NCBI GenBank assembly: GCA_964350985.1
Contig: CAYGLK010000002.1
Span: 64,382 to 128,381, forward strand
DNA from: an uncultured Candidatus Saccharibacteria bacterium
GTDB taxonomy: Bacteria > Patescibacteriota > Minisyncoccia > Phycocordibacterales > UBA918
Reading direction: 5' to 3'
Length of the DNA: 64,000 nt
The notes under the pieces were generated by a model, which worked only from the letters and a program-made list of their open reading frames with translations, searched no databases and was not told the DNA's origin. A program made the position numbers and the translations under genes. Below are positions 8,062 to 49,476 of this stretch, piece after piece. Positions within the stretch are counted from its first letter, which is position 1, and every line of letters starts with the position of its first letter.

Positions 8062-8147
8062 TGGAGAAGTGTCAGAGTGGTCTATCGTGCTTCCTTGCTA
8101 AGGAAGTGGGGTTCACGCCCCCGGAGGTTCGAATCCTCTCTTCTCCG
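8062..8147 (+). tRNA. tRNA-Ser, anticodon GCU (type II tRNA with long variable arm). Non-canonical 18-nt anticodon arm; no encoded CCA
   Basis: Acceptor GGAGAAG/CTTCTCC, T-arm GGAGG-TTCGAAT-CCTCT, variable arm GGGG-TTCACG-CCCC. Anticodon arm cttcc-ttgctaaa-ggaag has one extra nucleotide (8-nt loop, or 6-bp stem plus 6-nt loop). Confidence 0.75.
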
Positions 8148-8157
8148 CTTTTTGAAA

Positions 8158-8184
8158 ATACCGCCTCTGGGCGGTTATTTTCTT
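8158..8184 (+). terminator. Rho-independent terminator after tRNA-Ser (ccgcc-tctg-ggcgg plus T-run)
   Basis: Hairpin 8161-8174 followed by ttattttctt. Confidence 0.6.
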
Positions 8185-8445
8185 AAGCGGAGAAGAAGAA
8201 AAGTGCTAAGGCACTTTTCGTGAGGATTCGAAGACCTTGCCTACTATTTTGTGACGCAAGGAAACAAAATAGTGACAAGGTGTACTGCCTATGTAATGGG
8301 AGAAATTCCTCTCTTCTCGTAACAGTCTGGGAGACTGTTACGTAGGATTCGAAAAGCTTTTGAGGTAGATTCGACCAGAGGGAGAATATATCCAAAAGGT
8401 ATACTGGTTGTGTAACAACCGAAATTCCTCTCTTCTCCGCGAATA
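8185..8445. repeat. tRNA-linked repeat array A: inverted copy of the tRNA-Ser 3' tail, then two degenerate tRNA-3'-half-like units
   Basis: aagcggagaagaag at 8185-8198 is the reverse complement of ctcttctccgctt (8137-8150). Two units each contain a hairpin, a T-loop-like GGATTCGAA and an acceptor-like end gaaattcctctcttctc(cg). Confidence 0.5.
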
Positions 8446-16309: not shown

Positions 16310-16482
16310 AAAAAATACTTTAGCTGCTTTATTAATGGTTTGATTATATCATTTCTATAAATATTTGACTCAAATCTCTTAAAAAGTAGGGATGCCAAAC
16401 CTAAAACCAGGGCTTGGAATAAATGTCTTTTCCCTCTATAATAGGCGCTAACCACAAAAGTGGTGACAATTTGAACGAAGTG

Positions 16483-16634
16483 AATATATTGGAGGATTGG
16501 CTATGAAATCTAATTTGTTTTAGATTTCATCCGATCGTTCCCCAGAACGAATAATCGATGCTTTAGCGAGATTATAGGGAGGGTAACGAAGCCAATCCTA
16601 TCTAAGATCAGAGTGAATATATTGGAGGATTGGC
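16483..16634. repeat. 23-nt direct duplication (gtgaatatattggaggattggct) of the tRNA 5' end plus leader, with an inverted 10-nt copy (agccaatcct) in between
   Basis: Copies at 16483-16505 and 16612-16634; the inverted fragment sits around 16580. Confidence 0.55.
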
Positions 16635-16710
16635 TGAGTGGTTGAAAGCAGCAGTTTACTAAACTGCCGAACCTTAACAGGTTCCGAGAGTTCGAATCTC
16701 TCATCCTCCG
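16624..16710 (+). tRNA. Type II tRNA (Ser-class architecture) with apparent anticodon ACU (loop TTACTAA); unusual A34; no encoded CCA
   Basis: Acceptor GGAGGAT/ATCCTCC, D-loop AGTGGTTGAA, anticodon stem GCAGT/ACTGC, variable arm GAACCT-TAAC-AGGTTC, T-arm GAGAG-TTCGAAT-CTCTC. Confidence 0.65.
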
Positions 16711-16717
16711 CGAGTAC

Positions 16718-16748
16718 AAAAATAAGCACCTTTAGGTGCTTATTTTTG
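16718..16748 (+). terminator. Rho-independent terminator after the tRNA (aataagcacc-ttta-ggtgcttatt plus T-run)
   Basis: Perfect 10-bp stem with flanking A- and T-runs. Confidence 0.6.
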
Positions 16749-16750
16749 TT

Positions 16751-17150
16751 CGCGGAGGATGAAGAAAGCAAATAGTTTTGCTTTCTGTAGAGATTCGAAA
16801 GCCGCAGGCATGTCTGCAAGACAGCCGAGGCGGGGTCGAGAGTCCTTACTAGAATTAGAGCAAAGCGAATAATTATAGTTAGTAACTCGTGACCGAATTT
16901 CTATCTCTATACAACCCATTTAGGGTTGTTTTTATTTGTGCGAGCGAGAGGATGAGTAAGACGCCTGCGCGTCTTACGTAGAGATTCGAAAAGCGCAGCG
17001 ATGCCGGAGGCGAGCGAGTTGGGGTCGAGAACATTTAGTAGATTTGGAGTCGTAGACGAACAAATATACTTAATGATTCGTGACCGAATCTCCAACTCCA
17101 TACAACCCATTTAGGGTTGTTTTTATTTGTGCGAGCGGAGGATGAGAAAT
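16751..17150. repeat. tRNA-linked repeat array B: inverted copy of the tRNA 3' tail, then two tandem units of about 195 bp, each ending in the terminator-like module atacaacccatttagggttgtttttatttgtgcgagcg
   Basis: cgcggaggatga is the reverse complement of tcatcctccgcg (16701-16712). Units span about 16751-16946 and 16947-17137. Each has a hairpin, T-loop-like gtagagattcgaaagc, a GC-rich core and ccgaat + acceptor-like tail. Confidence 0.6.
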
Positions 17151-17163
17151 TTAAAAAAACAAT

Positions 17164-18177
17164 CTAACTATTCAGCTCTTTAGTTAAATCTTGCAACTCT
17201 TTATCAAGAGCACTTACCTCATCTTCCAGTCTATCCATCTGGTGCTGTGCACGTCTAATGATAGATAAGTTATTTCTTTTGGTGTTTTGAGCCGCAATAG
17301 CTAAGCTACCTGACTCCTTAAACTTTTGTTCCGTATCTTTTTCTTCTGTTTTTGCTGTTTCAATTTTAGCCTCCAACTCTTTTGCTTGCTGTTCTAATAA
17401 CTCAATTTGCTGACGTAACTCCTCCTCTTTTGATTTTCCGAAACTATCTACTTTTTTAGTTTCATTTTCAAGAAACTTCTCCCTAGAACTTTCATCACGT
17501 ATTTTTCGACGAATTTCTTCTTCTTGCCTAATCTTAGCTTCATTTATTCTCTCTCTAGCAGCAAGGGCATTTTTAAGACTCATCACATGCAGCTTCATTT
17601 TTTCAATTTTGTCTTCCTCTTGAACTACCTCTTGCCTCAGATCATTTATCTTGTCCGTCTCAATTGCTGTAGCTGACTCTTCAGTTGATAGATTATCTTG
17701 CAGTGATTTTATTTTTTTCTTTTGTTCCTTTACTAAATTCTCATCTTTCACTAACTCCGCCTGGTTTTGAGCAACTTTTGTCTCTTCTTGAAGCAAGGTC
17801 CTACTTAGTTCTTTTATTTTTGTGGTTATGCTCCGGTGTGAATTTTCTAAAGCCGAAATGTCTCTTTTTAAAGTTGGTAAGCTGTTTTTTGCAGTTGTCT
17901 TTTCTCTGTCAGCCTGTTCAGCTTTTGTCTCTTCTCGTTTATTATTTTCTACAAACTTATCAAACCTGGCTTTTAGTGAAAGAAGGTTAGCTTTTTTTGT
18001 ATTTAAGGAAGCTTTAACTTTAGTTATCTTCAGCTCGACATTCCGCTTGTGAAGTTTTTTCTTTTGCTCTTCTTGCAAACGAGCTTTTTCTAGTGCCGCT
18101 TTAGTTTCTGCTTCAGCTTCACGGCGTAATTTAGCACGACCTTCAGGTGTATTATGTGAGGGACTAGGAGCAAACAT
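17164..18177 (-). CDS. Lys/Glu-rich coiled-coil protein, function unknown
   Basis: 337 aa, almost entirely heptad-like charged sequence. Confidence 0.5.
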   Translation of the reverse strand: MFAPSPSHNTPEGRAKLRREAEAETKAALEKARLQEEQKKKLHKRNVELKITKVKASLNTKKANLLSLKARFDKFVENNKREETKAEQADREKTTAKNSLPTLKRDISALENSHRSITTKIKELSRTLLQEETKVAQNQAELVKDENLVKEQKKKIKSLQDNLSTEESATAIETDKINDLRQEVVQEEDKIEKMKLHVMSLKNALAARERINEAKIRQEEEIRRKIRDESSREKFLENETKKVDSFGKSKEEELRQQIELLEQQAKELEAKIETAKTEEKDTEQKFKESGSLAIAAQNTKRNNLSIIRRAQHQMDRLEDEVSALDKELQDLTKELNS

Positions 18178-18301
18178 GTGAAAATTGTACCACAGTGTTT
18201 TTTATAATTTAAAATTATAAGGCAAAGCGAATTGGAATATAATTAATCAGAGCTGAATAAACTTTACTACTAAATAATAATGATATAGTTAACCTATACT
18301 T

Positions 18302-19354
18302 ATGAAATTTAGCAACATACAACAAATATTTTTCTTCTCATTATTAATGTCTACTAGCATCTTGTTTTTTTGGATGTTAGGTAAATACCTTTTTCCTGTT
18401 TTTTGGGCAGCAGTAATAGCAGTAGTTTTTTATCCACTTTATCTATACTTCTCACGCAAGTTAAAAGAGCGTAATTCTATCGCCTCTATATTTACTATTA
18501 CAGCTATTGTCATAACTGTAGTTTTACCACTGACTGTTATTGGGGGCATGGTTGTCCAAGAGTCTGTCTCTCTTTATCAAAAAGTCTCGCAAAACGGTGG
18601 TGAATTACAAGGATTCAGTATTCTTAATCAAATAGAAAAGGTCACTATTTATCTTGAGCCGTTTGGTGTCTCTCCAGACATAACAGGCGAAAGACTGAAA
18701 GAGTGGACCGCAAGCGCCTCGAAAAATATCGCCTCTTCTTTAATATCTATTAGTCAGCTTACTCTGTCTTTTGTTATTAGTGGAGCCATCATGCTGTACT
18801 TACTTTTCTTTTTCTTTCGTGATGGAACCAAGATCAAAGAAACTTTGCTGCACTACATTCCTTTAGGTGATGTCTACGAGAAAAGATTATTCGCTCGTTT
18901 CGCTGAAACTTCTCGAGCAGTTATGAAAGGTACGATGACCATTGCTTTGATTCAAGGTTTTGTCGGTGGAATAACTTTCTTTTTTGTTGGTATTTCAAAC
19001 CCTGTACTTTGGGGTACTGCTATGGGCTTTTCTTCTATCATCCCTACCGTTGGTACCGGACTAGTTTGGGTTCCAGCTAGTATTATTCTCATTGCAACCG
19101 GATCTGTCTGGGAAGGAGTTACTATTATTGTCGTTGGAGTGGCGATCATTGGGATGATTGATGAATTCTTACGCCCAATCTTAGTTGGACGCGGATCTAA
19201 AATGCCAGATGCCATTGTTTTCCTAGCAACCATCGGAGGACTAACAACTTTTGGTATCTCTGGTTTTATCACTGGACCAATCATTGCCGCTTTCTTTCTT
19301 TCTCTATGGAAGATGTTTGAAGAAAAGTATCACAAAGAACTTTCCAGCAACTAA
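18302..19354 (+). CDS. AI-2E family transporter (UPF0118/PerM-like permease)
   Basis: 350 aa, 7-8 TM segments, family-typical length and topology. Confidence 0.7.
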   Translation: MKFSNIQQIFFFSLLMSTSILFFWMLGKYLFPVFWAAVIAVVFYPLYLYFSRKLKERNSIASIFTITAIVITVVLPLTVIGGMVVQESVSLYQKVSQNGGELQGFSILNQIEKVTIYLEPFGVSPDITGERLKEWTASASKNIASSLISISQLTLSFVISGAIMLYLLFFFFRDGTKIKETLLHYIPLGDVYEKRLFARFAETSRAVMKGTMTIALIQGFVGGITFFFVGISNPVLWGTAMGFSSIIPTVGTGLVWVPASIILIATGSVWEGVTIIVVGVAIIGMIDEFLRPILVGRGSKMPDAIVFLATIGGLTTFGISGFITGPIIAAFFLSLWKMFEEKYHKELSSN

Positions 19355-19361
19355 GGTCAAT

Positions 19362-20288
19362 TTACCAAAGCAAGTTTTCTCGTACCTCAGCTTCAGAGCC
19401 AACAAAAATCTCATTAGCACTTACTCTCTCACCATTGCTTAGATAAATATAAGCCGTACTATCCTCTCGTACATTAATTAATTCAGACACTGGCACTTTA
19501 ACAACCTTGTCAGACACTGGTACAAAAGCGATAGGTTGATCATCAATCTCTAATCTAACCGCTTGATTAAATCCTGTTCCTTCTACCGTAAGTAATCCGG
19601 CACTACTCCACCAAAAACCTTCTCTAGTAGCAGTAACTAAAGTCAGGTCTGGAGAACCACCCCACTCCCATTCAGGATTCGTGTGTTCATTTTCCCATTC
19701 TCCATAGTCATTATCTCTAAGAGGAGTGACTGCAAGTCGTCCGTCCTTTAAAGAAACCATGTTTCCAGCAGCAACCATCTCTACAGCATCTCCATTACGA
19801 TCTCTAACTTCGACAACCCCTTCAGTTACTACAATACGATCAATACCTTCACCAACTTCGGCACCAAATGCAGTTCCGCGTACCGCCGCTGCTAGAGTCG
19901 GAGTATAAACTTGGTAAATTTCATCTTGTTCTAAAGCTCGCTCGAGGCGTGACCAGAGCTTGCCTACAAGTAGATCAAAACTAGTTTCTTTTAAGTCACT
20001 TTCACTATTAAAGACAACTTCACTACTCTCCCCAATAGAAGTTAGAAGCTGCGGCCCAGACTTTATTAAAGCTCTTCCAGTAGTATCCGTTTTAATTGTT
20101 TCAGTTTTATTAAGCTCAGTTTCGTTACTTACCTCGTTATCTTCAATAAACACCATGCTATTTAAAGGTAAAAGAGTTGCAGTTTCATAACGTACTGATC
20201 TTTCAGTTATCGCCTCTGCTTGGCTTGAAAAATAATAAAAACCAGCGACAACCAACAAGATCGAAGCGACACTAAATATGTATTTCAT
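19362..20288 (-). CDS. Secreted FecR-domain protein, paralogue of 14993-16309
   Basis: 308 aa; YQVYTPTLAAAVRGTAFGA aligns with the FecR core of the paralogue. Confidence 0.55.
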   Translation of the reverse strand: MKYIFSVASILLVVAGFYYFSSQAEAITERSVRYETATLLPLNSMVFIEDNEVSNETELNKTETIKTDTTGRALIKSGPQLLTSIGESSEVVFNSESDLKETSFDLLVGKLWSRLERALEQDEIYQVYTPTLAAAVRGTAFGAEVGEGIDRIVVTEGVVEVRDRNGDAVEMVAAGNMVSLKDGRLAVTPLRDNDYGEWENEHTNPEWEWGGSPDLTLVTATREGFWWSSAGLLTVEGTGFNQAVRLEIDDQPIAFVPVSDKVVKVPVSELINVREDSTAYIYLSNGERVSANEIFVGSEAEVRENLLW

Positions 20289-20327
20289 TGCTTTATGATG
20301 CCTCTAAACAAAATACGAAGCAAGTCT

Positions 20328-21704
20328 TTAAATCACAGGACGACCATCAATGGTTTGTTGCGCAGCTGGTTCGGGTTCTTGTATTGGTGGCACAAAGTGA
20401 GTTGCGATGTCTTCATCTTTTAATCTTACCTTCAGCCAATCAATCACCTTTTGGGCTGCTTCATTATTTAAGGCCTCTGCTTGAGTATTAGTATAGATCA
20501 ACACTACCGGTTTATTAGAATCAAAGTCCTGCTCAAGTTGGCTAGATACTAGAGAACCAATGGCTAAGTCTTTTATTCTTTCTTCAATAACCCTTGCCTC
20601 AGCCAATATCTGAGCCGGATTTTCAATTAGATGACTTTTTTCCAAACGAGCTTCTAAAGCAGCAATTTTTGCATCATCTCCTGCAACACCCTCTAGCACC
20701 TTTTGCCACTCAGCTTCGGAAAGCGAGAAATTATTTTGCCTAACCCGTAAAACGGTATCCGTGAGCTTGAAGTCAATTAATAATTTCTGAAACTCTTCAA
20801 TTTGGTCTGGGTTAAATCGATCTGACAAAAAAGCCAATTCAATTACCTTAGGGGAAGTCTTATAAGATAAGTTTGTATAAACAACGATGTAACCTTGTTC
20901 TTTAAAAGTAGTATTTATAAAACGTTCGGCATTTTGATTAAAATTATTTTGACCAACAAATGTGTAAGCAAAATAAATCGCTGGAGTAATGATCACCAAT
21001 ATCACTGCTGTAATAATACGTCGAACCTTTAGTTGATGTTCCTGGTCAGGATATTGCACTTTTGGCAACTTCAGATATTTTGCCACCAATAAAGCAGACA
21101 GACAGATAAAGATTGAATTAATCAAAAATAAATACAAAGCCCCAAAGACAAACTTTGCCTGGAAAGTGGCAAGTCCGTATCCAATTGTACAAAGTGGTGG
21201 CATCAAAGCGGTGGCAATAGCGACGCCAGGAATAATATTATTGTGGCGTGCTCGACTAATACCAATAAACCCAGCCATCCCTCCAAAAATAGCTACAAGG
21301 ACGTCAAAGATGGTCGGCTGTATACGCGATAGTAATTCTGATTGAGCGTTAGTAATGGGACTTAAGGCAAAGTAAATTGTTGAAATAACAATACTAATAA
21401 AAGTAAGCATTCCCAGATTCCGTAAAGATCGGCGCATTAGGCCGCCATCATTAATAGCTAAAGCCATACCCATACTAACGATCGGACCCATGAGCGGTGA
21501 GATAAGCATGGCTCCGATAACAATTGGTATTGAATTAATATTTAAACCGACTGAAGCAGCTCCAATAGCAAAAACCAGAGTCCAAAGACGCGCACTACTA
21601 AAGTCCGAGTCATCTTTAATATTTTCAATCATCACTTTTTTGTCTTCTGCTCCCTCACGAAGATCAAGTAGCCGACGTAGAAATTTACTAAAATCTTTTG
21701 TCAT
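20328..21704 (-). CDS. DUF389-like polytopic membrane protein with soluble C-terminal domain
   Basis: 458 aa; N-terminal TM bundle GAMLISPLMGPIV. Confidence 0.5.
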   Translation of the reverse strand: MTKDFSKFLRRLLDLREGAEDKKVMIENIKDDSDFSSARLWTLVFAIGAASVGLNINSIPIVIGAMLISPLMGPIVSMGMALAINDGGLMRRSLRNLGMLTFISIVISTIYFALSPITNAQSELLSRIQPTIFDVLVAIFGGMAGFIGISRARHNNIIPGVAIATALMPPLCTIGYGLATFQAKFVFGALYLFLINSIFICLSALLVAKYLKLPKVQYPDQEHQLKVRRIITAVILVIITPAIYFAYTFVGQNNFNQNAERFINTTFKEQGYIVVYTNLSYKTSPKVIELAFLSDRFNPDQIEEFQKLLIDFKLTDTVLRVRQNNFSLSEAEWQKVLEGVAGDDAKIAALEARLEKSHLIENPAQILAEARVIEERIKDLAIGSLVSSQLEQDFDSNKPVVLIYTNTQAEALNNEAAQKVIDWLKVRLKDEDIATHFVPPIQEPEPAAQQTIDGRPVI

Positions 21705-21880
21705 GGAAATTAATTTACTCTGAAGATATCAGAGTAATATTATTATCATTATACTTCACTAAGAAACTAAGATATTGAATTATTAAGTTTTGAATTTGAA
21801 AATAAAAAAGCTCCCAAGAGTGGGAGTAGAGAGATCAAAATCCGGGGTGCATGTTCGCACTCCCGGACTTGCCGTCAAGA

Positions 21881-22093
21881 CTAATCATCTTGGCAGCGAA
21901 ACTTGTGGCGTAAAGCGTTTTGCATCGCTCCCGCCACTTTGAATGTTTTTTTTCTTGGCTTTCTAGCCCGAGGCTTCACAGGCGGCAAGTCTAGCTCCTT
22001 GATTCTAGACGCACGCTCCCAACCTTTCTCGCAAGCTACCTGAACATTACTTGGAAGCTTGTCAAACCCTGGCATTTCATAGATTTGAGACAT
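21881..22093 (-). CDS. Small basic hypothetical protein (about 70 aa), start at the second Met
   Basis: GGAG 9 nt upstream of the internal ATG; followed on the minus strand by hairpin ctcccactcttgggag plus T-run (21805-21832). Confidence 0.3.
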   Translation of the reverse strand: MSQIYEMPGFDKLPSNVQVACEKGWERASRIKELDLPPVKPRARKPRKKTFKVAGAMQNALRHKFRCQDD

Positions 22094-22177
22094 GGCTTTG
22101 CTCCAAAGAACCAAACTTAACTATAGCATACTTTTACCAATTTGTACATAGCTGAGTAGTGTTTATAACTGAAAAAG

Positions 22178-22212
22178 ACTGAAAAGCTTCGCTTTTCAGT
22201 CTTTTTACTTCC
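22178..22212. terminator. Bidirectional terminator (aaaagactgaaaagc-ttcg-cttttcagtcttttt)
   Basis: Perfect 13-bp stem flanked by A- and T-runs; downstream of the malic enzyme on the minus strand. Confidence 0.6.
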
Positions 22213-22226
22213 CTGTCTATGTCACC

Positions 22227-23444
22227 TTATTTAACCGCCGCAGCCACGATCTTCACCAAGCCTGGAGTCATAACTGCTGGTATCACTAGATCCGCAGTTG
22301 GTTTTTTGATCATTCCGGCTATCTTTTGCGCTGCAGCCAATTTCATATCATCGGTAATATTTTTTACTCCCTTATCTAAAGCTCCACGGAATATTCCTGG
22401 GAAAACTAAGGCGTTGTTAATCTGATTAGGAAAATCTGAACGACCAGTTGCTACAACTACTGCCCCAGCTCTAAGTGCGTCTTCTGGCAGTATCTCTGGA
22501 ACAGGGTTAGCGAGCGCAAACACAATTGGACTAGCAGCCATCGCTTCGATATGTACTTGAGCAATTGTCCCCGGACCAGAAACTCCCACGATAGCGTCCG
22601 CTCCACTAATAGCGTTCATTACATCACCTTGAACTTTTTCTGGGTTGGTAATATCACCTAAGTTTTTCTTGTAGCCAGCCAAGTCGCGTCTGCCTTTATA
22701 GATTATTCCTTTACTGTCTGTCACGATGACGTTTGTAATACCAGCTTTTAGTAAAAGTAAGGTAACTGCTCTTCCAGCAGCACCAGCACCAACTACTACC
22801 ACCTTAAGCGAAGCCAAGTTTTTCTTTACTACCTTTGCAGCATTAATCATCCCGGCCAAAACCACTACCGCTGTACCATGCTGATCGTCATGCATCACCG
22901 GAATATCAAGTTCAGCCTTCAGTCTGTCTTCGATTTCAAAACACTGTGGAGCCGCAATATCCTCTAGGTTAATAGCACCAAAAGTTGGAGCAATTGCTTT
23001 TACCGCTTTAATTATTCCTTCAACATCATGAACATCAAGCACAATTGGAATACCATCAATATCAGCCATTTCTTTTAAGATGGCGCACTTACCTTCCATC
23101 ACTGGCAGCGCGGCTATTGGGCCGATGTTACCAAGACCTAAAACTGCTGAACCGTCACTAATGACCGCCACTGTATTTCGCTTAATAGTATAAAGACGAG
23201 CGTCTTTAGGAAATTTAGCTAAGTGACTAGAGACAGCCCCTACTCCAGGTGTATACATCGTACTCCATTCATCTCGAGTAGAGAGTCTGCCTTTTGAGAC
23301 GACTTCTAACTTACCTTTTAGTTTTTTGTGTAGTGCCAGTGACAATTTACCGTAGTCTTTTTTCACTATTCTTAAAGCAGCTTTCTTTTTTGAGACTACT
23401 TTTGCTTTTTTCTTTTTTGCTGGAGCTGATTTTTTGACAGACAT
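22227..23444 (-). CDS. NAD(P)-dependent malic enzyme with Lys-rich N-terminal tail
   Basis: 405 aa; YTPGVGAV, LGLGNIGP, AALPVMEGK and the GAGAAG NAD-binding loop. About 35 N-terminal residues are K/A-rich. Confidence 0.85.
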   Translation of the reverse strand: MSVKKSAPAKKKKAKVVSKKKAALRIVKKDYGKLSLALHKKLKGKLEVVSKGRLSTRDEWSTMYTPGVGAVSSHLAKFPKDARLYTIKRNTVAVISDGSAVLGLGNIGPIAALPVMEGKCAILKEMADIDGIPIVLDVHDVEGIIKAVKAIAPTFGAINLEDIAAPQCFEIEDRLKAELDIPVMHDDQHGTAVVVLAGMINAAKVVKKNLASLKVVVVGAGAAGRAVTLLLLKAGITNVIVTDSKGIIYKGRRDLAGYKKNLGDITNPEKVQGDVMNAISGADAIVGVSGPGTIAQVHIEAMAASPIVFALANPVPEILPEDALRAGAVVVATGRSDFPNQINNALVFPGIFRGALDKGVKNITDDMKLAAAQKIAGMIKKPTADLVIPAVMTPGLVKIVAAAVK

Positions 23445-23496
23445 AAAAATTATTTAATGTCATATAGTATACTCCACTTTCTTTAAATTTAAATAT

Positions 23497-23800
23497 AAAA
23501 AAGCCGGAGCCAGTAGTGTAACTACCGACTCTGGCCTGTGCGGCGCAAGTGTTAACAACGAAACTTGCGCGCCATCCTACCTCGACACGATCCAGCCCGG
23601 ATCGTGTCGGTAGGCACCTGTGTCCGGCGCAACGGAGGCAGCTCCGTGCAACGGCAGACACCAATCGGTGTGGGCGTGTCACGGATTCGGTAGGCATCCG
23701 CCGACCGACATCCCCGTACCGTAACAAGGACCTTTCCGACCAAGACTCTTGGCATAACACCTCTCCCCGAGGCAAGTCACCACTTTAGTGACTCTATTAC
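23497..23800. ncRNA. GC-rich, hairpin-dense non-coding island; candidate structured RNA (SRP-RNA-like GUCCGG...GGAGGCAGC motif), strand undetermined
   Basis: About 60% GC versus AT-rich flanks. Multiple perfect hairpins (gcgcaagt..acttgcgc; cgacacgatcc..ggatcgtgtcg; cggaggcagctccg). Short ORFs on both strands. Confidence 0.3.
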
Positions 23801-23884
23801 TATACCATGTTTACGGCATAAAGTCAATATATAAATCGTCTTTTAAATAAGGCTTTACTAGCACTTCTCTGTTACTATTTAAGG

Positions 23885-26191
23885 ATGAATACGAGCGACT
23901 TACTCACAGACCACTTCCGGATTGATACCATTCACAAAAAGGCTTTGGCTCGCCTTGGAATTAATACTATTGAAAACCTACTGCTTCACTTACCGCAACG
24001 CTATGAAGACATCTCTTCTATCCAATCTGTTGGTTCACTACAAAAAAGCCAAGACGCGGTAGTCTTTGGACAACTAGGCGGACTTAACACTCGCAAGTCT
24101 TGGAAGAGTAAGGTACCTATTTCTGAAGGCTGGGTTGAGGACGGAACTGCTCGGATTAAGATCATGTGGTTCAACCAACCATACATCGCCAAGATGTTAA
24201 CTGACGGTATGTACGTTAAGGCGGCTGGTAAAGTAGCTGGCACTGAAGGAAAACTTTATCTAACCAATCCCGAAGTTGAAAAACTAGATAGCTTACCAAT
24301 TGATCGTCACGACTCAATCTTTAACCAAACCGAAAATTTGGACGAGACTATCTACCCGGTATATAGAGAAACAAAAGGAGTAACTTCAAAGTGGTTTTTC
24401 CATACTGTCCAAAAATGTTTTTCTGCCGGTATTTTAGATCAGATTACTGACCCAATACCAGAAGAAATTTTAAATCGATATAACCTCCCTACTTTAAAGA
24501 CAGCTCTCCAATGGATTCATACTCCAAAGAAAGCAGAGCATGCCGCAAGTGCGCGTAAGCGTTTTGCTTTTGAAGAAGTTTTTTATATTCAAACTGCTAA
24601 AGCGCGAGAACGCGCTCAAGTGAGTGTATCTTCTAGTTACCAAATAGTGACTGAGGAGGAACATATTAAAAAATTTACTGAACGCTTCCCGTTTGAACTT
24701 ACTCCAGCCCAGAATAAAACTATCAAAGAAATCCTAAAAGACTTTGGTGGTAAACATCCGATGTCACGACTACTTGAAGGCGACGTTGGTAGTGGAAAGA
24801 CGGCTGTGGCTGCTACCGCTGCCTATGCAGTCGCAACTTCGCGTCCGCCAGAGGGCTTGAAAAATAATAGCGCCGCAAATTTTTCGGATAGTTCGAGGCG
24901 TGGAGAAAGCGCTGAGGGAGGCGTACATAAGTACGACGACCGAGACGCTGAGGCTCCACAACGAAGAAATATCCAAAAATTAGCGGCGCTGGAGTATGGG
25001 AATCTTCAAGTAGCCTATATGGCCCCAACAGAAATCCTGGCCAAGCAACACTTTGAATCTTTCATTGAATACTTCAAGCACCTCCCGATTCAAATTGGTC
25101 TTATTACCGGTAGTGGTTGTTTTAAATTTCCATCTAAATCAAATCCTGAAAAACCAACTCCGATATCTAAAGCTCAGCTCTTGAAATGGGTTAAAAATGG
25201 TGAGATCCCAATTGTTATCGGAACTCATTCTTTAATATACAAATCAGTAGAATTTAAACACTTGGCTCACGTCATTATTGACGAGCAACATCGTTTTGGT
25301 ACCAACCAAAGACGAGCTCTGGCTAAAAAAGACTCTCGCATGCCGCACTTGCTTTCCATGACCGCTACTCCAATTCCTCGTACTTTAGCCCTCACTGTTT
25401 ATGGCGACTTAGATATTTCACTTTTGGACCAAATGCCTAAAGGTCGCAAGCCAATTATTACCAAGGTCTATGCTCCGAGTCAGATGGAAAAAGTTTATGA
25501 ACATGTTAAAAGTGAATTAGCTGATGGTCGGCAAGCTTATGTTATTTGTCCCCGCATAGATGAACCTGATCCAAGTAAAGAAAATGCCCTACAACTGAAG
25601 TCAGTGAAACAAGAAGCTGAGCGATTGAAGAAAAATGTCTTCAAAGACGCTCGGATTGATATCCTACATAGCAAAATGACACCAAAAGAAAAAGACAACG
25701 TCATGTTACGTTTTCTAAACCATGAGATTGATATTTTAGTTGCCACTTCAGTAGTAGAGGTTGGGGTCAGTGTCCAAAATGCCACTAATATTATTATTGA
25801 AGGAGCTGAACGTTTTGGCCTTGCTCAACTTCATCAACTTCGCGGTCGCGTAGTCCGTGGTACACACCAAGCTTATTGTTTTGTCGTGACCTCAAAAGAC
25901 ACTACTGGCAAAAGCGGCAAGACACTCGAAAGACTTAAAGCACTGACCCAAGCTAAAAATGGTTTTGAACTTGCTGAGTACGACTTAAATATCCGTGGCA
26001 GTGGTGAACTTTACGGAATGAAACAATGGGGACTGACAGACCTAGGGATGGAAGCTCTTAAAAATTTGAAAATGGTTGAAGCAGCTCGGGCAGAAGCGCA
26101 AAAGATAATTGCAGAAGATTCTACTTTAAAAAACTATCCAAAGATTGCCGGAAAAATAGCTGCCTTAAGCAAGAACCTCCACATGGAATAA
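23885..26191 (+). CDS. recG: ATP-dependent DNA helicase RecG, with a roughly 55-aa low-complexity insertion after Walker A
   Basis: 768 aa; GDVGSGKT Walker A, DEQHRFG Walker B/DEAH, helicase C motifs QLRGRVVRG. Confidence 0.85.
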   Translation: MNTSDLLTDHFRIDTIHKKALARLGINTIENLLLHLPQRYEDISSIQSVGSLQKSQDAVVFGQLGGLNTRKSWKSKVPISEGWVEDGTARIKIMWFNQPYIAKMLTDGMYVKAAGKVAGTEGKLYLTNPEVEKLDSLPIDRHDSIFNQTENLDETIYPVYRETKGVTSKWFFHTVQKCFSAGILDQITDPIPEEILNRYNLPTLKTALQWIHTPKKAEHAASARKRFAFEEVFYIQTAKARERAQVSVSSSYQIVTEEEHIKKFTERFPFELTPAQNKTIKEILKDFGGKHPMSRLLEGDVGSGKTAVAATAAYAVATSRPPEGLKNNSAANFSDSSRRGESAEGGVHKYDDRDAEAPQRRNIQKLAALEYGNLQVAYMAPTEILAKQHFESFIEYFKHLPIQIGLITGSGCFKFPSKSNPEKPTPISKAQLLKWVKNGEIPIVIGTHSLIYKSVEFKHLAHVIIDEQHRFGTNQRRALAKKDSRMPHLLSMTATPIPRTLALTVYGDLDISLLDQMPKGRKPIITKVYAPSQMEKVYEHVKSELADGRQAYVICPRIDEPDPSKENALQLKSVKQEAERLKKNVFKDARIDILHSKMTPKEKDNVMLRFLNHEIDILVATSVVEVGVSVQNATNIIIEGAERFGLAQLHQLRGRVVRGTHQAYCFVVTSKDTTGKSGKTLERLKALTQAKNGFELAEYDLNIRGSGELYGMKQWGLTDLGMEALKNLKMVEAARAEAQKIIAEDSTLKNYPKIAGKIAALSKNLHME

Positions 26192-36876: not shown

Positions 36877-36949
36877 CCGCCTGTAGCTCAGTTGGTAGAG
36901 CGCAGAGCTTATACCTCTGTGGTCCTTGGTTCGAGTCCAAGCGGGCGGA
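36877..36949 (+). tRNA. tRNA with anticodon UAU (loop CTTATAC), putatively tRNA-Ile(UAU); no encoded CCA
   Basis: Acceptor CCGCCTG/CGGGCGG (one G-U), TAGCTCAGTTGGTAGAGC D-arm, anticodon stem CAGAG/CTCTG, T-arm CTTGG-TTCGAGT-CCAAG, discriminator A. Confidence 0.7.
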
Positions 36950-36955
36950 CTGGCG

Positions 36956-37021
36956 TAAAATAAAACTGACAATTGTTAACAATTGTCAGTTTTATTTTAG
37001 TTAGCAAACTTTTTTGCTAAC
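36956..37021 (+). terminator. Double terminator: 44-nt perfect palindrome taaaataaaactgacaattgttaacaattgtcagttttatttta, then hairpin gttagcaaa-ctttt-ttgctaac
   Basis: Perfect palindromes read directly. Confidence 0.6.
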
Positions 37022-37165
37022 GGCGCCAGTCCGAGCCGCAGCGCTGCGAACTAGTGAGCCGCGAGGCGGGATCGCGAACACTTAGTATATTTGGAGTGGT
37101 CGAACAAATATACTTAGTGATTCGTGATGACTGAATGTTTTAAATTTATATTCCTACTGGTCCTT
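37022..37165. repeat. tRNA-linked repeat C: inverted copy of the tRNA 3' trailer (cgccagtccg), then one unit homologous to array B; contains a perfect 15-bp AT-rich hairpin
   Basis: Hairpin is cacttagtatatttg / caaatatacttagtg. About 70 nt align with 17040-17110 of array B. Followed by the terminator aaaaagaacaacg-tcta-acgttgttcttttt (37170-37200). Confidence 0.55.
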
Positions 37166-44540: not shown

Positions 44541-44987
44541 ATGACTGATTACGTAAAAAACCGAAAAGCGAGCTTTGACTTTGAATTCCTCGAACAATAT
44601 GAAGCCGGGGTGATTCTCTCTGGTTTTGAAGTCAAAGCCATTAGAGCCAACAAAGCCAACCTAAATGGAGCTTATGTTATTATTCGTGGCGGTGAAGCTT
44701 TCCTGGTTAATGCCTCTATTAGTCCCTATCAGCCAATAAACACTCCAAAAAACTACGATCCAGAACGAGCTCGTAAATTGCTTTTAAGCAAGAAACAGCT
44801 GGCTGAATTGGAGCAAGGGAGTGAAAAGAATGGCTTGACAATAGTGGCTATTAAGTGGTATAATAAGGGAAGTAAGATCAAGTTACATATTGCCTTAGCT
44901 CGTGGAAAGCGTAGTGTAGACAAGCGCGAAAAGCTAAAGGAAAAAAGTAGCAAACGCGACATCGATCGTCTTTTGAAAAATCAATAA
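44541..44987 (+). CDS. smpB: SsrA-binding protein SmpB
   Basis: 148 aa; family-typical N-terminus and conserved K/R-rich C-terminal tail; immediately upstream of the tmRNA. Confidence 0.85.
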   Translation: MTDYVKNRKASFDFEFLEQYEAGVILSGFEVKAIRANKANLNGAYVIIRGGEAFLVNASISPYQPINTPKNYDPERARKLLLSKKQLAELEQGSEKNGLTIVAIKWYNKGSKIKLHIALARGKRSVDKREKLKEKSSKRDIDRLLKNQ

Positions 44988-45071: not shown

Positions 45072-45464
45072 GGGGATGCTAGGCATCGACGGTTAGCCTA
45101 CCCATTATGTGCAGTGTCGAAATTGGAATCAATTCGTTAAAAGGTTCCATCTGTATTTGCAAACAAGCCAATACCAAGTCCTTACGCTAACGCGTTTGGA
45201 TTCGCTCCCGCTCTAGCGTAACCATTCGCCTAGACCCGGATCGATGCGATCGTACTAAACGCCTCATACAGTACGATTCGTAGAATAGCCACGAGGCTGT
45301 GGACTTAAGTGTCGTTGTCGCTTAAGTTCAAGATTGTCACAACTCGAGTAATTGTTGTTTTGTCTCTTCTATAGACAGTTACTTTAAATCAAAGGAGAAA
45401 CTACACACTGTAGATTCATGATGAGTACCTGATTCGGACGGGGTTTCGATTACCCCCATCTCCA
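45072..45464 (+). ncRNA. ssrA: tmRNA (ssrA), one-piece; tag ORF 45159-45221 encodes ANKPIPSPYANAFGFAPALA
   Basis: 5' end GGGGATGCTAGGCATCGACGG (tmRNA-like start); 3' tRNA-like domain GGGGT-TTCGATT-ACCCC plus acceptor CATCTCC pairing with GGGGATG. GCA resume codon in ...tttGCAAAC..., tag ends ALA-TAA. Adjacent to smpB. Confidence 0.7.
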
Positions 45465-45469
45465 CTCGC

Positions 45470-46301: not shown

Positions 46302-48167
46302 ATGAAATTCGAATCGTCTTCTTTTGAAGCAGAACCTTCTTTTGTTGTAACACCTCCACCAATTGACGCCTTACTAAAAATAAGTAGAGAAGGTTCATAC
46401 CTACCACATGAGGTTATGGAGAACGACGAAAGAATCAAACAGGCTGAACTTAGACTAAAAATTCTCGATCTCCTGCAGTCAGTACTCATCACTAATGACG
46501 AGACTAAAACAGACACGTTACCTGATGAACTATACGCTTCACTTACAGAACTACTTCATTCGGACAACCAAAATAATCGGATAATTCTTTACCTCCCGTT
46601 TGAGTGGGTTCCTAAAATTAACCAATCAGACAACGTCTCTGAAAATATCAACCAACAAGCAGAAGCCTTTTTGTCAGCTTATAAAACTGCATGGCTTTCC
46701 CTACTCACCTCATCTGAATTTAGAGCTGATTATGCCGATGGTGATATTCTTGAACCAGCATTTAGAAACGAAAAATTACCTAAGGTGGTAAAAGCGGCAC
46801 ACCTTATACCAGACCTTCTTGAAAGAGGTGTTTTGACTATGGATGAAATTATCACTCTATTTGAAGAGGCTGAGAATACCACCTTGCAAAACAGCATTGC
46901 AGACGGACTTTACGTCGCTCGCGAAAGAAATCTCGTCACAGACGAGCAGCTTGCCAAAATGAAGTTTTCTCAAAACACTTTTGTTTCCAATACCGCCAGA
47001 CTCATTGAGATTGAAATAAAACAACTTACTGAAACAAATAATGAAACAACAGAGCTAGTTCAAATTATTTCAGCGTACGAAGGTGAAATCACAGAAACAC
47101 AAAAAATAGCAGAAAATACGCCGATGACAGAATCACGTCGGGCGTGGCTACAAGCAGCTGACGCCGAAAAAATTATAGAAAAATACGCCTCAAAAATCAC
47201 CAACCGGACTGATCTTGATGCCCTGCTTGTTAGTAAGGAATTAACTCATATCACCCTTGGAATTCGTTCAATCGAATATCTATTGCGCCAAGAAAGCGAC
47301 AGCAAGACACAAGAATCTTTGACTGTAGAGTATCAATCCGTACTTCAAAATTATCTTGACCATGACGTCGAATCAGTCCGCGAGGCAGCCAAAAAGACCC
47401 TCTACCATTTACGCTCACTAGGACTTATCAATGATGCTTCACTAAACTCACAGGGACTTGAGCTGCCACAACTAAATGCCTCATCAGAAACCATTCTAAA
47501 TAAATTGAGTTCGGAAATTCAGCAATTTACCGAAGCTTCAAATCGTATAAAAAATAACGAGATACTTTCTAAGCATGTATACCCAGTTACAGTCTTTCTT
47601 GGTTCACGAATGAAAGGATATGCGTCAGAAGCAGCAGACTTTGATGTCGCCGTGTTTGTGAAGCCAGGTGCCTCTGAAAGCGATCGTCAGATAATCCAAA
47701 AAGAACTTACCACAGTATTTGCTGGCACACCGGCAAAAGGGAGCGCTATGGAATTTTGGCTTGAAGAAAAAAGTGACGGTAACTATACAGTTAAAAACTA
47801 TGAGGTGCTCGATGAGAAGCGTGGAGACAACACCCTAGTTCATCCAATTCTCGGCGCCTGGTGTGGTGAAGAAAAAGCAATTGCTGAACTTCAATCAAGA
47901 CTCATGCCACAATACCTTTTCTCCAAAGACACCGCTATTATGAATGTCGACGCCCGGTCAATTTGGCTAAACGAAATTGAACATACAACATTGAAATACA
48001 GACTAATGCATAAGGGTTATTCACGATTTTCGGCATCACAACTAGGAACACCCACACCTCACAATGATCTCATAGATAGTTCAAGTGCCTTCTATGATCC
48101 TGGCTACCGCCGACTAGCAACCGAACTATTTCTCAAGAAAGTTTTTCTGCCTCAACTATCTAAGTAG
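46302..48167 (+). CDS. Large protein with C-terminal minimal nucleotidyltransferase (pol-beta-like) domain; unknown alpha-helical N-terminal region
   Basis: 621 aa; NTase signature GSRMKGYASEAADFDVAVFV (hG[GS]..D.D) around residues 435-455. Confidence 0.55.
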   Translation: MKFESSSFEAEPSFVVTPPPIDALLKISREGSYLPHEVMENDERIKQAELRLKILDLLQSVLITNDETKTDTLPDELYASLTELLHSDNQNNRIILYLPFEWVPKINQSDNVSENINQQAEAFLSAYKTAWLSLLTSSEFRADYADGDILEPAFRNEKLPKVVKAAHLIPDLLERGVLTMDEIITLFEEAENTTLQNSIADGLYVARERNLVTDEQLAKMKFSQNTFVSNTARLIEIEIKQLTETNNETTELVQIISAYEGEITETQKIAENTPMTESRRAWLQAADAEKIIEKYASKITNRTDLDALLVSKELTHITLGIRSIEYLLRQESDSKTQESLTVEYQSVLQNYLDHDVESVREAAKKTLYHLRSLGLINDASLNSQGLELPQLNASSETILNKLSSEIQQFTEASNRIKNNEILSKHVYPVTVFLGSRMKGYASEAADFDVAVFVKPGASESDRQIIQKELTTVFAGTPAKGSAMEFWLEEKSDGNYTVKNYEVLDEKRGDNTLVHPILGAWCGEEKAIAELQSRLMPQYLFSKDTAIMNVDARSIWLNEIEHTTLKYRLMHKGYSRFSASQLGTPTPHNDLIDSSSAFYDPGYRRLATELFLKKVFLPQLSK

Positions 48168-48171
48168 CATA

Positions 48172-48207: not shown

Positions 48208-48226
48208 ACAAGAGCAAAAAGAACGT

Positions 48227-49432: not shown

Positions 49433-49476
49433 GACTTCTCTCCACGTAGATGCGGGTTTTGCCCGCGGGTTGTATT

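What the first reader, a model, noticed from the sequence alone, without database searches (positions are those of the whole stretch)
16624..16710. Type II tRNA with apparent anticodon ACU (A34), redundant with tRNA-Ser GCU
Seen in sequence:
- The anticodon stem GCAGT/ACTGC unambiguously places TTACTAA as the loop, giving anticodon ACU with U33 and A37 in place.

Established knowledge: A34 is essentially restricted to tRNA-Arg(ACG) in bacteria, where TadA deaminates it.

Inference:
- An ACU Ser-type tRNA would need A-to-I editing to read AGU/AGC/AGA.
- That would imply non-standard decoding, or the gene is a decoy or pseudo-tRNA tied to the repeat system.
Basis: partly seen in the sequence, partly recalled or inferred. 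Interest (0 to 1): 0.55.

Follow-up and report, generated by a model that had tools for sequence, protein, structure and literature searches.

The report
Conserved A34 serine tRNA in Patescibacteria
This is a real, intact serine tRNA gene with the almost-never-seen anticodon ACU; it is conserved in many Patescibacteria (CPR) genomes and some phages alongside the normal GCU serine tRNA, and most likely reads the abundant AGU codon by plain A-U pairing in a lineage that lacks wobble-inosine editing.

Summary
Positions 16624-16710 (+) encode a canonical type II tRNA-Ser with anticodon ACT (ARAGORN; Rfam tRNA 56.9 bits), and a tRNA-Ser(GCT) lies at 8063.

It is not a pseudogene or decoy. A scan of 185,579 species genomes found 92 such genes. 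About 74 are in CPR-type MAGs, and 36 of the 92 have a GCU gene within 8 kb. Across 47 distinct sequences, 99.5% of stem positions pair and 18 of 25 pairs show compensatory changes.

ACU and GCU genes are old paralogues: 68% identity within a genome against 81% among ACU genes of different genomes. Every backbone at least 84% identical to this one carries ACT.

AGA still means Arg, so there is no recoding. AGU is the top Ser codon here (310, against 102 AGC).

CPR bacteria are reported to lack tRNA-Arg(ACG). The related loci show Arg(GCG) 3 times and Arg(ACG) 0 times, so A-to-I editing is unlikely.

Best reading: a dedicated Watson-Crick AGU decoder with unmodified A34. No lineage-wide ANN tRNA in a two-codon box has been described in the literature I could search.

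Separately, all three tRNA genes in the window are flanked by structured repeats that copy the tRNA's own ends.

The parts
16624..16710 (+). tRNA-Ser(ACU) gene: type II tRNA with G73 discriminator and no encoded CCA
   Evidence: ARAGORN; Rfam RF00005 56.9 bits, full length; 99.5% of stem cells paired across 47 homologues
16658..16660 (+). Anticodon ACT (A34 C35 U36) within the loop TTACTAA (16656-16662)
   Evidence: Direct reading; CM alignment register. The loop U-UUACUAA-A is invariant in 47 CPR-type homologues, although the search pattern partly fixed it.
8063..8147 (+). tRNA-Ser(GCU), the conventional AGY reader and an old paralogue of the ACU gene
   Evidence: ARAGORN and Rfam. The alignment to the ACU gene is divergent. 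ACU versus GCU genes in the same genome average 68% identity over 36 genomes.
16463..16490 (+). Sigma-70-like promoter (GTGACA-16-TATATT) placed before a partial 5' copy of the tRNA; probable start of a transcript with a ~120-nt leader
   Evidence: Consensus scan, 10 of 12 matches. This is a pattern match only; function is inferred.
16479..16502 (+). Exact 24-nt direct repeat of 16612-16635 (12 nt upstream plus tRNA nt 1-12). Together with the 109-nt insert at 16503-16611, which contains AGCCAATCCT, the reverse complement of tRNA nt 3-12.
   Evidence: the repeat finder family D3, 100% identity. The same partial copy and insert are present in the close relative L105.
16711..16754 (+). Terminator-like hairpin right after the tRNA, T-rich on both sides. 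Its stem extends into the tRNA 3' strand (16701-16720 pairs with 16743-16762).
   Evidence: the repeat finder I2 and I3; direct reading
16751..16945 (+). Downstream element, unit 1. It holds the reverse complement of the tRNA acceptor 3' strand (16751-16762), a small hairpin (16763-16786), the reverse complement of the T arm (16789-16799), a ~110-nt structured core, a decayed sense copy of the tRNA 3' end, and a terminator (16911-16929).
   Evidence: Fold MFE is -72.3 kcal/mol, z = -5.7. Homologous cores are 74-93% identical in L039, L041, L042, L011, L049, L084 and L013.
16946..17137 (+). Downstream element, unit 2, a tandem copy with ~191-nt period and a terminator at 17102-17120. A third unit starts at 17138-17149.
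   Evidence: the repeat finder D1, D2, D4, D5; consensus structure with 17 of 36 covarying pairs

Best explanation
A functional, vertically inherited elongator tRNA-Ser. Its A34 stays unmodified, and it reads the AGU codon by Watson-Crick A-U pairing. It works beside tRNA-Ser(GCU), which covers AGC and, by wobble, AGU.

The genome is a Patescibacteria (CPR, Paceibacteria-type) genome. This radiation is reported not to use wobble inosine: it has no tRNA-Arg(ACG) and uses Arg(GCG) instead. That removes the usual penalty for A34 in a two-codon box, which is that I34 would also read the A-ending codon, here AGA = Arg.

Shown here:
- the gene is intact;
- it is conserved with covariation, syntenic, and coexists with GCU;
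- the anticodon is fixed;
- the code is standard;
- AGU is preferred.

Inferred:
- charging by SerRS (from identity elements);
- use on the ribosome;
- absence of A34 modification.
For: 1. The gene is intact. ARAGORN and Rfam agree (56.9 bits). By direct reading it has G1-C72, G2-C71, A3-U70, C11-G24, G73, a long variable arm, G18G19 and TTCGAAT.
2. It is conserved. A scan of 185,579 species genomes found 92 loci, and ARAGORN calls tRNA-Ser(act) in all of them. About 74 are CPR-type. In 47 distinct sequences, 99.5% of stem cells pair, 18 of 25 pairs show changes on both sides, and 0 of 500 shuffles reach the observed values.
3. It is not a recent G34A mutant. ACU versus GCU in the same genome averages 68% identity, against 81% for ACU genes between genomes. 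With the anticodon left open, every backbone at least 84% identical to this gene carries ACT; GCT backbones are at most 80% identical.
4. It coexists with GCU. In 36 of 92 loci a GCU gene lies within 8 kb, and in 10 loci the two genes are in tandem, 105-173 nt apart. Synteny with the malic enzyme, RecG and tRNA-Ile(UAU) genes is shared with about 10 loci.
5. Codon use fits. The window has AGT 310 against AGC 102, so AGT is the most used Ser codon. Phage contigs that carry Ser(ACU) have AGT/(AGT+AGC) = 0.80, above 0.5 in 16 of 16 loci, against 0.51 in other phage loci.
6. There is no sign of an inosine system. CPR loci hold Arg(GCG) 3 and Arg(ACG) 0, and EcTadA gives no tblastn hit in the window or in those loci. 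PMC8629427 states that tRNA-Arg(ACG) is lacking in CPR. Phage arrays with Ser(ACU) carry Arg(GCG) in 4 of 16 and Arg(ACG) in 0 of 16.
7. Unmodified ACU is specific for AGU. An orthogonal tRNA with ACU read AGU at 9.4%, AGC and AGA below detection, and AGG at 0.36% (PMC11066159).
8. Engineered Ser-tRNA(ACU) was tolerated, even beneficial, in E. coli (bioRxiv 10.64898/2026.05.15.725136).
Against: - There are no expression, aminoacylation or modification data for any of these tRNAs.
- The absence of TadA rests on one literature statement plus a small sample: 10 Arg tRNAs and about 0.65 Mb of CPR DNA.
- tRNA-Ser(GCU) can already read AGU, so the selective need is not demonstrated.
- AGU preference across the CPR-type loci is only modest (0.57).
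- The 92 hits are a small share of all species scanned, and the pattern fixed ACT. Prevalence within CPR is therefore unknown, and the invariance of the anticodon is partly built into the search.
- In E. coli, an engineered ANN tRNA of a two-codon box (Phe-AAA) did become I34, so A34 is not automatically safe from deamination.
Confidence: 0.6

Rival explanations
1. The tRNA is deaminated to I34 by TadA or another deaminase. It then reads AGU and AGC, and weakly AGA. This would give it broader reading of the AGY box, at the cost of some Ser-for-Arg misreading at AGA.
For: - A34 is deaminated in nearly all known A34 tRNAs.
- The loop shares U33-A34-C35 and A37-A38 with tRNA-Arg(ACG).
- In E. coli, the engineered two-codon-box tRNA that was measured (Phe-AAA) became I34, and the authors suggest TadA may be flexible in its substrates.
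Against: - CPR bacteria are reported to lack tRNA-Arg(ACG), the reason TadA is kept.
- Related loci hold Arg(GCG) 3 and Arg(ACG) 0, and no TadA-like ORF was found in the window or in 92 loci.
- Position 36 is U, where tRNA-Arg(ACG) has G.
- AGA is frequent (192 codons in the window) and aligns with Arg exactly as CGA does.
- A GCU tRNA is kept alongside, which would be largely redundant with an ICU tRNA.
Confidence: 0.15
2. The tRNA is charged with serine but works outside the ribosome. It might serve tRNA-dependent cell-wall or lipid aminoacylation, act as a regulatory tRNA, or be a variant kept because it resists an anticodon nuclease that cuts tRNA-Ser(GCU).
For: - Apparently redundant isoacceptors have such roles elsewhere; from my own knowledge, the Staphylococcus tRNA-Gly species used for peptidoglycan bridges.
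- A paper listed (PMC10264068; title and abstract only read) proposes that phage tRNAs evade tRNA-targeting host defences through anticodon-loop mutations.
- Ser(ACU) occurs in 16 phage contigs.
Against: - SerRS does not read the anticodon, so a role off the ribosome would not by itself hold ACU and the whole loop invariant.
- All elongator hallmarks are intact: G18G19, the T-loop and regular stems.
- Phage copies track AGU-rich codon usage (0.80 against 0.51), as expected for a decoder.
Confidence: 0.12
3. It is a pseudogene, a decoy, or a by-product of the flanking repeats (for example an att-site relic), with a chance G34A change.
For: - The gene sits among repeats that copy its 5' and 3' ends.
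- Some Polynucleobacter copies of an unrelated Ser(ACU) family do look degenerate: L006 and L007 have broken acceptor stems.
Against: - It is a full-scoring tRNA.
- About 74 CPR-type orthologues have 99.5% paired stems and compensatory changes in every helix.
- It is an old paralogue of GCU with conserved synteny.
- The anticodon is fixed in all close backbones.
Confidence: 0.03

Closest known systems
Mycoplasma capricolum tRNA-Thr(AGU), and yeast mitochondrial tRNA-Arg(ACG): natural tRNAs with unmodified A34
   Same: A34 is encoded in the gene. These occur in reduced genomes that have lost or do not use TadA, and the A is left unmodified (as summarised in PMC11066159).
   Different: Those tRNAs sit in four-codon family boxes, where A34 can read several codons without changing the amino acid. 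The gene here sits in a split box (AGY Ser / AGR Arg), is accompanied by the G34 isoacceptor, and is expected to read only AGU.
tRNA-Leu(AAG) and tRNA-Thr(AGU) of Lactobacillales (Oenococcus, Streptococcus, Lactococcus)
   Same: These are lineage-wide bacterial ANN tRNAs other than Arg(ACG), in AT-rich genomes that prefer U-ending codons (bioRxiv 10.64898/2026.05.15.725136).
   Different: They belong to four-codon boxes. They replace the GNN gene rather than coexist with it. The Leu one is deaminated by TadA, and those genomes keep TadA. The same preprint reports that ANN tRNAs of two-codon boxes are only sporadic.
Bacterial tRNA-Arg(ACG) with TadA (I34)
   Same: A34 in the gene, and a U33-A34-C35 ... 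A37-A38 loop context.
   Different: Position 36 is G in Arg and U here. The CPR lineage is reported to lack tRNA-Arg(ACG), and no TadA was found in the sampled DNA. Inosine in this box would misread AGA.
Engineered Ser-tRNA(ACU) in E. coli, and orthogonal M. jannaschii tRNA(ACU)
   Same: The same anticodon. The orthogonal tRNA read AGU with no detectable AGC or AGA reading. Overexpressed Ser-tRNA(ACU) improved growth measures in E. coli.
   Different: Those are laboratory constructs in a TadA-positive host. This is a natural, conserved gene.
Conventional bacterial tRNA-Ser(GCU)
   Same: The same amino-acid identity set and codon box. The D-arm and anticodon-stem pattern of this gene is the one that most bacteria and phages use for their GCU tRNA: with the anticodon left open, the pattern gave GCT 90 of 121 hits in metagenomes and 77 of 96 in viral contigs.
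   Different: A34 instead of G34. In CPR a second, divergent GCU gene is also present.

Membership tests
Elongator tRNA-Ser (type II tRNA, SerRS substrate) | Cloverleaf that reaches the curated tRNA model threshold | tested here: met
   RF00005 scores 56.9 bits against a gathering score of 29, matching model positions 1-71. ARAGORN calls tRNA-Ser.
Elongator tRNA-Ser (type II tRNA, SerRS substrate) | Long variable arm with a stem | tested here: met
   An 18-nt variable region with a 5-bp stem, GAACC/GGTTC. All 5 pairs covary across 47 homologues.
Elongator tRNA-Ser (type II tRNA, SerRS substrate) | Bacterial SerRS identity nucleotides: G73, G1-C72, G2-C71, A3-U70, C11-G24 (the E. coli identity set, from established knowledge) | tested here: met
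   All are present by direct reading. G1-C72, G2-C71 and C11-G24 are invariant, and A3-U70 is kept in 46 of 47 homologues.
Elongator tRNA-Ser (type II tRNA, SerRS substrate) | Tertiary-interaction hallmarks: G18G19 in the D loop and T54-Psi55-C56 in the T loop | tested here: met
   The D loop is GAGTGGTTGAA and the T loop TTCGAAT. Both are invariant or nearly so in the alignment.
Elongator tRNA-Ser (type II tRNA, SerRS substrate) | Charged with serine and used on the ribosome | not testable with these tools
   Needs biochemistry or tRNA-seq. The only indirect support is the link with AGU-rich codon usage.
TadA / I34 substrate (tRNA-Arg(ACG) type) | Anticodon loop U33-A34-C35-G36, as in the canonical substrate tRNA-Arg(ACG) | tested here: not met
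   The loop is U33-A34-C35-U36. Position 36 differs. How strictly TadA requires G36 is from my own knowledge and was not checked here.
TadA / I34 substrate (tRNA-Arg(ACG) type) | The genome encodes TadA and tRNA-Arg(ACG) | tested here: inconclusive
   No TadA hit in the 64-kb window or in 92 related loci. Arg tRNAs there are CCG 5, GCG 3, CCT 2 and ACG 0. The literature says ACG is lacking in CPR. The whole genome was not available.
tRNA pseudogene / decoy | Broken stems, a sub-threshold score, or no conservation in relatives | tested here: not met
   No mismatch in any stem; 99.5% of cells paired with compensatory changes; syntenic orthologues.
Natural unmodified-A34 tRNAs | A34 encoded, in a lineage without wobble inosine | tested here: met
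   A34 is confirmed. The lineage evidence is; it is indirect for this particular genome.
Natural unmodified-A34 tRNAs | A34 remains adenosine in the mature tRNA | not testable with these tools
   Requires tRNA sequencing or mass spectrometry.
Natural unmodified-A34 tRNAs | Sits in a four-codon family box as the main or sole reader (superwobble) | tested here: not met
   AGN is a split box. AGA and AGG align with Arg. A G34 partner is present.

The most novel reading that the evidence does not exclude
Patescibacteria, and some phages, naturally and stably use an unmodified-A34 tRNA in a two-codon box. This would be the first lineage-wide exception to the rule that ANN anticodons are excluded from split boxes. 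It would imply that the rule is enforced mainly by the presence of the TadA/inosine system rather than by any intrinsic defect of A34.

A bolder version holds that A34 carries a new, CPR-specific modification. Another bolder version holds that the tRNA-end-mimicking structured elements flanking these tRNA genes are a new class of tRNA-targeted mobile element, or of tRNA-like RNA processed by the tRNA-processing enzymes.
Probability: 0.5. Interest if true: 0.72.

Novelty: new variant of a known kind. Interest (0 to 1): 0.62.

Why it matters
Why nearly all life avoids A at the wobble position, and above all in two-codon boxes, is an old open question. Recent work still treats such tRNAs as absent or only sporadic in bacteria.

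A conserved natural Ser(ACU) gene, sitting beside Ser(GCU) in a radiation that appears to lack wobble inosine, offers a natural test. If A34 is unmodified and the tRNA is used, avoidance elsewhere is a consequence of TadA (I34 would misread NNA codons), not of poor A34 decoding.

There are practical consequences too:
- CPR and phage genome annotation should not discard Ser(ACT) calls as errors.
- Codon-adaptation models need to account for it.
- It is a ready-made AGU-specific decoder for codon-reassignment engineering.

Tried and rejected
1. Different anticodon register or pseudogene: rejected. Two independent tRNA finders agree.
2. Recent G34A mutant of the neighbouring GCU gene: rejected. 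The alignment is divergent, and ACU versus GCU identity within a genome (68%) is lower than ACU-ACU identity between genomes (81%).
3. Codon reassignment (AGA or AGG to Ser): rejected. Window AGA codons align with Arg, mostly with CGN codons, in homologues at the same rate as CGA (55% against 56%). Ser is not among the top five residues.
It hit only unrelated metagenome contigs, next to tRNA-Arg(ACG).
5. Known RNA family for the downstream repeats: nothing in Rfam at gathering thresholds, and only spurious sub-threshold miRNA or sRNA hits at E up to 1.
6. The Rfam 'Plastid-psbl-rps4' antisense hit (38 bits against a gathering score of 68) first suggested a cyanobacterial or plastid origin. I dropped this. 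The gene content (type IV pilus genes, DUF2339, CHASE2 cyclase) and the DNA matches point to Paceibacteria-type CPR MAGs.
7. An integrase between the tRNA and a displaced repeat array in L011: the only substantial ORFs there are two small ones with no obvious integrase. This neither supports nor excludes the integrative-element idea.
8. Literature searches for a prior description of Ser(ACU) in CPR found none. The library is incomplete, and Rafels-Ybern 2019 was not available.
9. Finding the source contig through a flanking protein gave only a 7.5-kb Logan contig that ends inside the repeats.

Full report
OBSERVATION. The window at 16624-16710 (+) reads as a textbook type II tRNA. It has a 7-bp acceptor stem (GGAGGAT/ATCCTCC) and a 3-bp D stem with a GAGTGGTTGAA loop. 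The anticodon stem is GCAGT/ACTGC and the loop TTACTAA. The variable arm is 18 nt with a 5-bp stem, the T arm is GAGAG-TTCGAAT-CTCTC, and the discriminator is G73. No CCA is encoded. ARAGORN calls tRNA-Ser(act) at 16624-16711. The Rfam tRNA model gives 56.9 bits (gathering 29; E = 1.3e-09 over the whole window) in the same register. The anticodon ACT is at 16658-16660. The window also holds tRNA-Ser(gct) at 8063-8148, tRNA-Ile(tat) at 36877-36950 and a tmRNA at 45072-45465.

WHAT GENOME THIS IS. The window has about 40% G+C. It encodes type IV pilus proteins, a DUF2339 membrane protein, a CHASE2 cyclase, FecR-domain proteins, malic enzyme, RecG, FtsH, SmpB and a class A penicillin-binding protein. 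At the DNA level its genes match, at 66-76% identity, contigs of MAGs labelled Paceibacteria, Kaiserbacteria, Parcubacteria and Paceibacterota. It is a Patescibacteria (CPR) genome of the Paceibacteria type. The exact source was not identified. An independent Logan assembly holds 7 kb of the same sequence and breaks off inside the repeats next to the tRNA.

THE GENE IS CONSERVED, NOT A ONE-OFF. I scanned one genome for each of 185,579 species. The pattern required a Ser-type D loop, the loop YTACTRA and a T loop. It found 92 loci, and ARAGORN calls a tRNA-Ser(act) in every one.
- By deposited label, 47 loci are explicitly CPR: Paceibacteria, Parcubacteria, Kaiser-, Yanofsky-, Nomura-, Magasanik-, Roizman-, Levy- and Saccharibacteria, and 'Patescibacteria group'.
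- About 27 more carry the same tRNA type under generic or doubtful labels.
- Ten belong to a separate Polynucleobacter/Burkholderiales family.
- Eight are scattered in other phyla.

In an alignment of 47 distinct CPR-type sequences, 99.5% of stem cells are standard pairs. Eighteen of 25 pairs show changes on both sides, all five helices covary, and no shuffle or slid register comes close. The nine bases U-UUACUAA-A are invariant. The pattern fixed five of them, so that part is only partly informative.

To remove that bias I searched metagenome and viral collections with the D-arm and anticodon-stem pattern and a free anticodon. Most hits carry GCT: 90 of 121 in metagenomes and 77 of 96 in viral contigs. 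However, every hit at least 84% identical to the window gene carries ACT (L105 at 97%, then L235, L210, L176 and L139). The GCT backbones are at most 80% identical. No close G34 version of this gene was found.

IT IS AN OLD PARALOGUE THAT LIVES BESIDE GCU. In 36 of the 92 loci a tRNA-Ser(gct) lies within the same 8 kb. In ten loci the two genes are in tandem, 105-173 nt start to start. ACU and GCU genes of the same genome are 68% identical on average. ACU genes of different genomes are 81% identical. The neighbourhood of Ser-GCU, Ser-ACU, malic enzyme, RecG and tRNA-Ile(UAU) recurs in about ten loci. A pseudogene, a decoy or a chance G34A mutant is excluded.

DECODING. The genetic code is standard. 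In tblastn alignments of window proteins to homologues in the fetched loci, AGA codons face Arg in 55% of cases, mostly CGN-encoded, just like CGA (56%). AGU faces Ser at 35%, against 41% for UCU. AGA is common: 192 codons in about 15,400. AGU is the most used Ser codon (310), three times AGC (102).

Three lines argue against it.
1. Shulgina and Eddy state that tRNA-Arg(ACG) appears to be lacking in the CPR, which uses Arg(GCG), UCG and CCG instead (PMC8629427).
2. In my CPR-type loci the Arg tRNAs are CCG 5, GCG 3, CCT 2 and ACG 0. E. coli TadA finds no homologue in the window or in those loci, whereas it readily finds tadA next to Arg(ACG) in unrelated metagenome contigs.
3. The loop has U36 where tRNA-Arg(ACG) has G36.

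Experiments with an orthogonal tRNA bearing unmodified ACU show reading of AGU (9.4%), with AGC and AGA below detection and AGG at 0.36% (PMC11066159). The most economical mechanism is therefore a Watson-Crick AGU reader with plain A34. Such a tRNA can persist in a lineage where nothing converts A34 to the promiscuous inosine.

Support from phages: 16 IMG/VR contigs carry Ser(ACU) inside tRNA arrays. Their ORFs use AGU for 80% of AGY codons (above 0.5 in 16 of 16 loci) and 39% of all Ser codons, against 51% and 22% in the other viral loci. These arrays contain Arg(GCG) in 4 of 16 and never Arg(ACG), while the other viral loci have Arg(ACG) 7 times.

Weak points:
- There are no expression or modification data.
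- AGU preference over all CPR-type loci is modest (0.57).
- GCU can already read AGU.
- An engineered two-codon-box ANN tRNA in E. coli (Phe-AAA) did acquire inosine.

COMPARISON WITH WHAT IS KNOWN. Natural unmodified A34 is documented for Mycoplasma tRNA-Thr(AGU) and yeast mitochondrial tRNA-Arg(ACG), both in four-codon boxes. Lineage-wide bacterial ANN genes other than Arg(ACG) are reported for Leu(AAG) and Thr(AGU) in Lactobacillales. These too are in four-codon boxes, and they replace the GNN gene. A May 2026 survey of GtRNAdb (4,047 bacteria) reports ANN tRNAs of two-codon boxes as sporadic only. That database holds few CPR MAGs. Six literature searches found no description of Ser(ACU) in CPR. 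The library is incomplete, so prior mention elsewhere cannot be ruled out. I rate the finding as a new variant of a known kind: an ordinary tRNA family using an anticodon class thought to be excluded.

THE REPEATS. What is there is as follows.
- Immediately after the tRNA comes a terminator-like hairpin (16711-16754).
- Next comes the reverse complement of the tRNA's own acceptor 3' strand (16751-16762), a small hairpin (16763-16786), and the reverse complement of the T arm (16789-16799).
- Then follow a ~110-nt core, a decayed sense copy of the tRNA 3' end, and an intrinsic terminator (16911-16929).
- The whole unit is repeated in tandem with a ~191-nt period: 16946-17137, with a third start at 17138.

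The same architecture, with arms matching the local tRNA, follows Ser(GCU) (8187-8233 and beyond) and Ile(UAU) (37000-37130). Cleaner copies occur in L041, L049, L039, L023 and L011. Cores are 74-93% identical between genera whose protein genes are about 70% identical at the DNA level. Unit 1 folds with z = -5.7. Nine copies share a three-way structure with compensatory changes in 17 of 36 pairs.

An inverted copy of the tRNA's own 3' end, 36-48 nt downstream, occurs at 17 of 143 tRNA genes in CPR-type loci: 10 Ser-ACU, 6 Ser-GCU and 1 Arg-GCG. It occurs at 0 of 50 in the non-CPR loci and at control level elsewhere.

On the 5' side, an exact 24-nt duplication (16479-16502 = 16612-16635) brackets a 109-nt insert that contains the reverse complement of tRNA nt 3-12. 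The relative L105 has the same arrangement. The only good sigma-70-like promoter sits before the partial copy.

These elements are attached to tRNA genes in general, not to the ACU gene in particular. My sample of related loci was chosen for containing Ser-ACU, so the apparent association is biased. They could be miniature integrative or transposable elements that target tRNA ends and rebuild them. They could also be tRNA-like structured RNAs whose closing helix reproduces the acceptor and T stems. I could not decide between these readings.

VERDICT. That the gene is functional and conserved I hold at about 0.95. That it decodes AGU on the ribosome I hold at about 0.8. That A34 is unmodified I hold at about 0.65.

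Noticed in passing
window 16711-17150; 8148-8440; 36951-37130; also L041:1750-2100, L049:3655-4060, L039:800-1260, L023:6300-6560, L011:2150-2750: Structured ~190-nt elements lie immediately downstream of tRNA genes. Their order is: terminator hairpin; reverse complement of the tRNA's own acceptor 3' strand; small hairpin; reverse complement of the T arm; conserved ~110-nt core; sense copy of the tRNA 3' end. They are often in tandem. The arms match the local tRNA. Cores are 74-93% identical across genera, with compensatory changes in 17 of 36 pairs. They are not in Rfam. They may be a mobile element or a tRNA-like RNA; this is unresolved.
   Followed up: partly
window 16479-16635: An exact 24-nt direct repeat (12 nt upstream plus tRNA nt 1-12) brackets a 109-nt insert. 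The insert contains a hairpin and the reverse complement of tRNA nt 3-12. The only sigma-70-like promoter (16463-16490) precedes the partial copy, so the tRNA probably has a ~120-nt leader. The same arrangement is in L105 and a similar one in L021.
   Followed up: partly
window 36877-36950; also L021, L044, L069, L073: tRNA-Ile with anticodon UAU, rare in bacteria, which normally use a lysidine-modified CAU tRNA for AUA. It is conserved at 89-97% identity in related CPR loci. AUA makes up 19% of Ile codons in the window.
   Followed up: no
L234, L239, L240, L249, L259, L262, L269, L278, L279, L283, L295, L299, L302, L303, L304 (IMG/VR contigs): Phage tRNA arrays carry tRNA-Ser(ACU) with encoded CCA, usually without a Ser(GCU), and in 4 cases with Arg(GCG). 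Their ORFs use AGU for 80% of AGY codons. The hosts are unknown.
   Followed up: partly
L006, L007, L008, L050, L072, L074, L083, L088, L090 (Polynucleobacter and relatives): A second, unrelated tRNA-Ser(ACU) family with C32 lies next to tRNA-Gly(CCC) and tRNA-Thr(CGU). One strain has four copies. Some copies have broken acceptor stems (L006, L007), which suggests a mobile island or att-site duplicates in a presumably TadA-positive host.
   Followed up: no
window 48000-52900: A G+C jump from about 0.40 to 0.57-0.58. The island holds a divergent adenylosuccinate-synthetase-like ORF (49477-50865, minus strand; Pfam PF00709, E = 1e-29) and two ORFs with no Pfam match. It is probably horizontally acquired.
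   Followed up: no
window 45072-45465: A one-piece tmRNA with the unusual tag peptide ANKPIPSPYANAFGFAPALA, placed directly after smpB (44541-44987).
   Followed up: no
L001 (Logan ERR3534985 contig) = window 17108-24177: An independent assembly of the same sequence (100% identity) stops inside unit 2 of the tRNA-flanking repeats. This fits the repeats being multi-copy in the genome and breaking short-read assemblies.
   Followed up: no
L069 (labelled Patiriisocius), L089 (Acidimicrobiales), L058 (Bdellovibrionales), and 19 loci labelled 'uncultured Gammaproteobacteria': These contigs carry CPR-type tRNA-Ser(ACU). L069 and L089 also have tRNA-Ser(GCU) and the malic-enzyme synteny of the window; L069 additionally has RecG and tRNA-Ile(UAU). 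Their taxonomic labels are probably binning or labelling errors.
   Followed up: no
viral loci L214-L309 and metagenome loci L094-L213: ARAGORN also calls other A34 tRNAs there: tRNA-Thr(agt) four times in viral loci and tRNA-Tyr(ata) once in a metagenome locus. I did not examine them.
   Followed up: no
window 58919-61885 (-): A Type ISP restriction-modification enzyme (N6_Mtase plus the Type_ISP_C domain) sits in a region of small ORFs with no family match.
   Followed up: no
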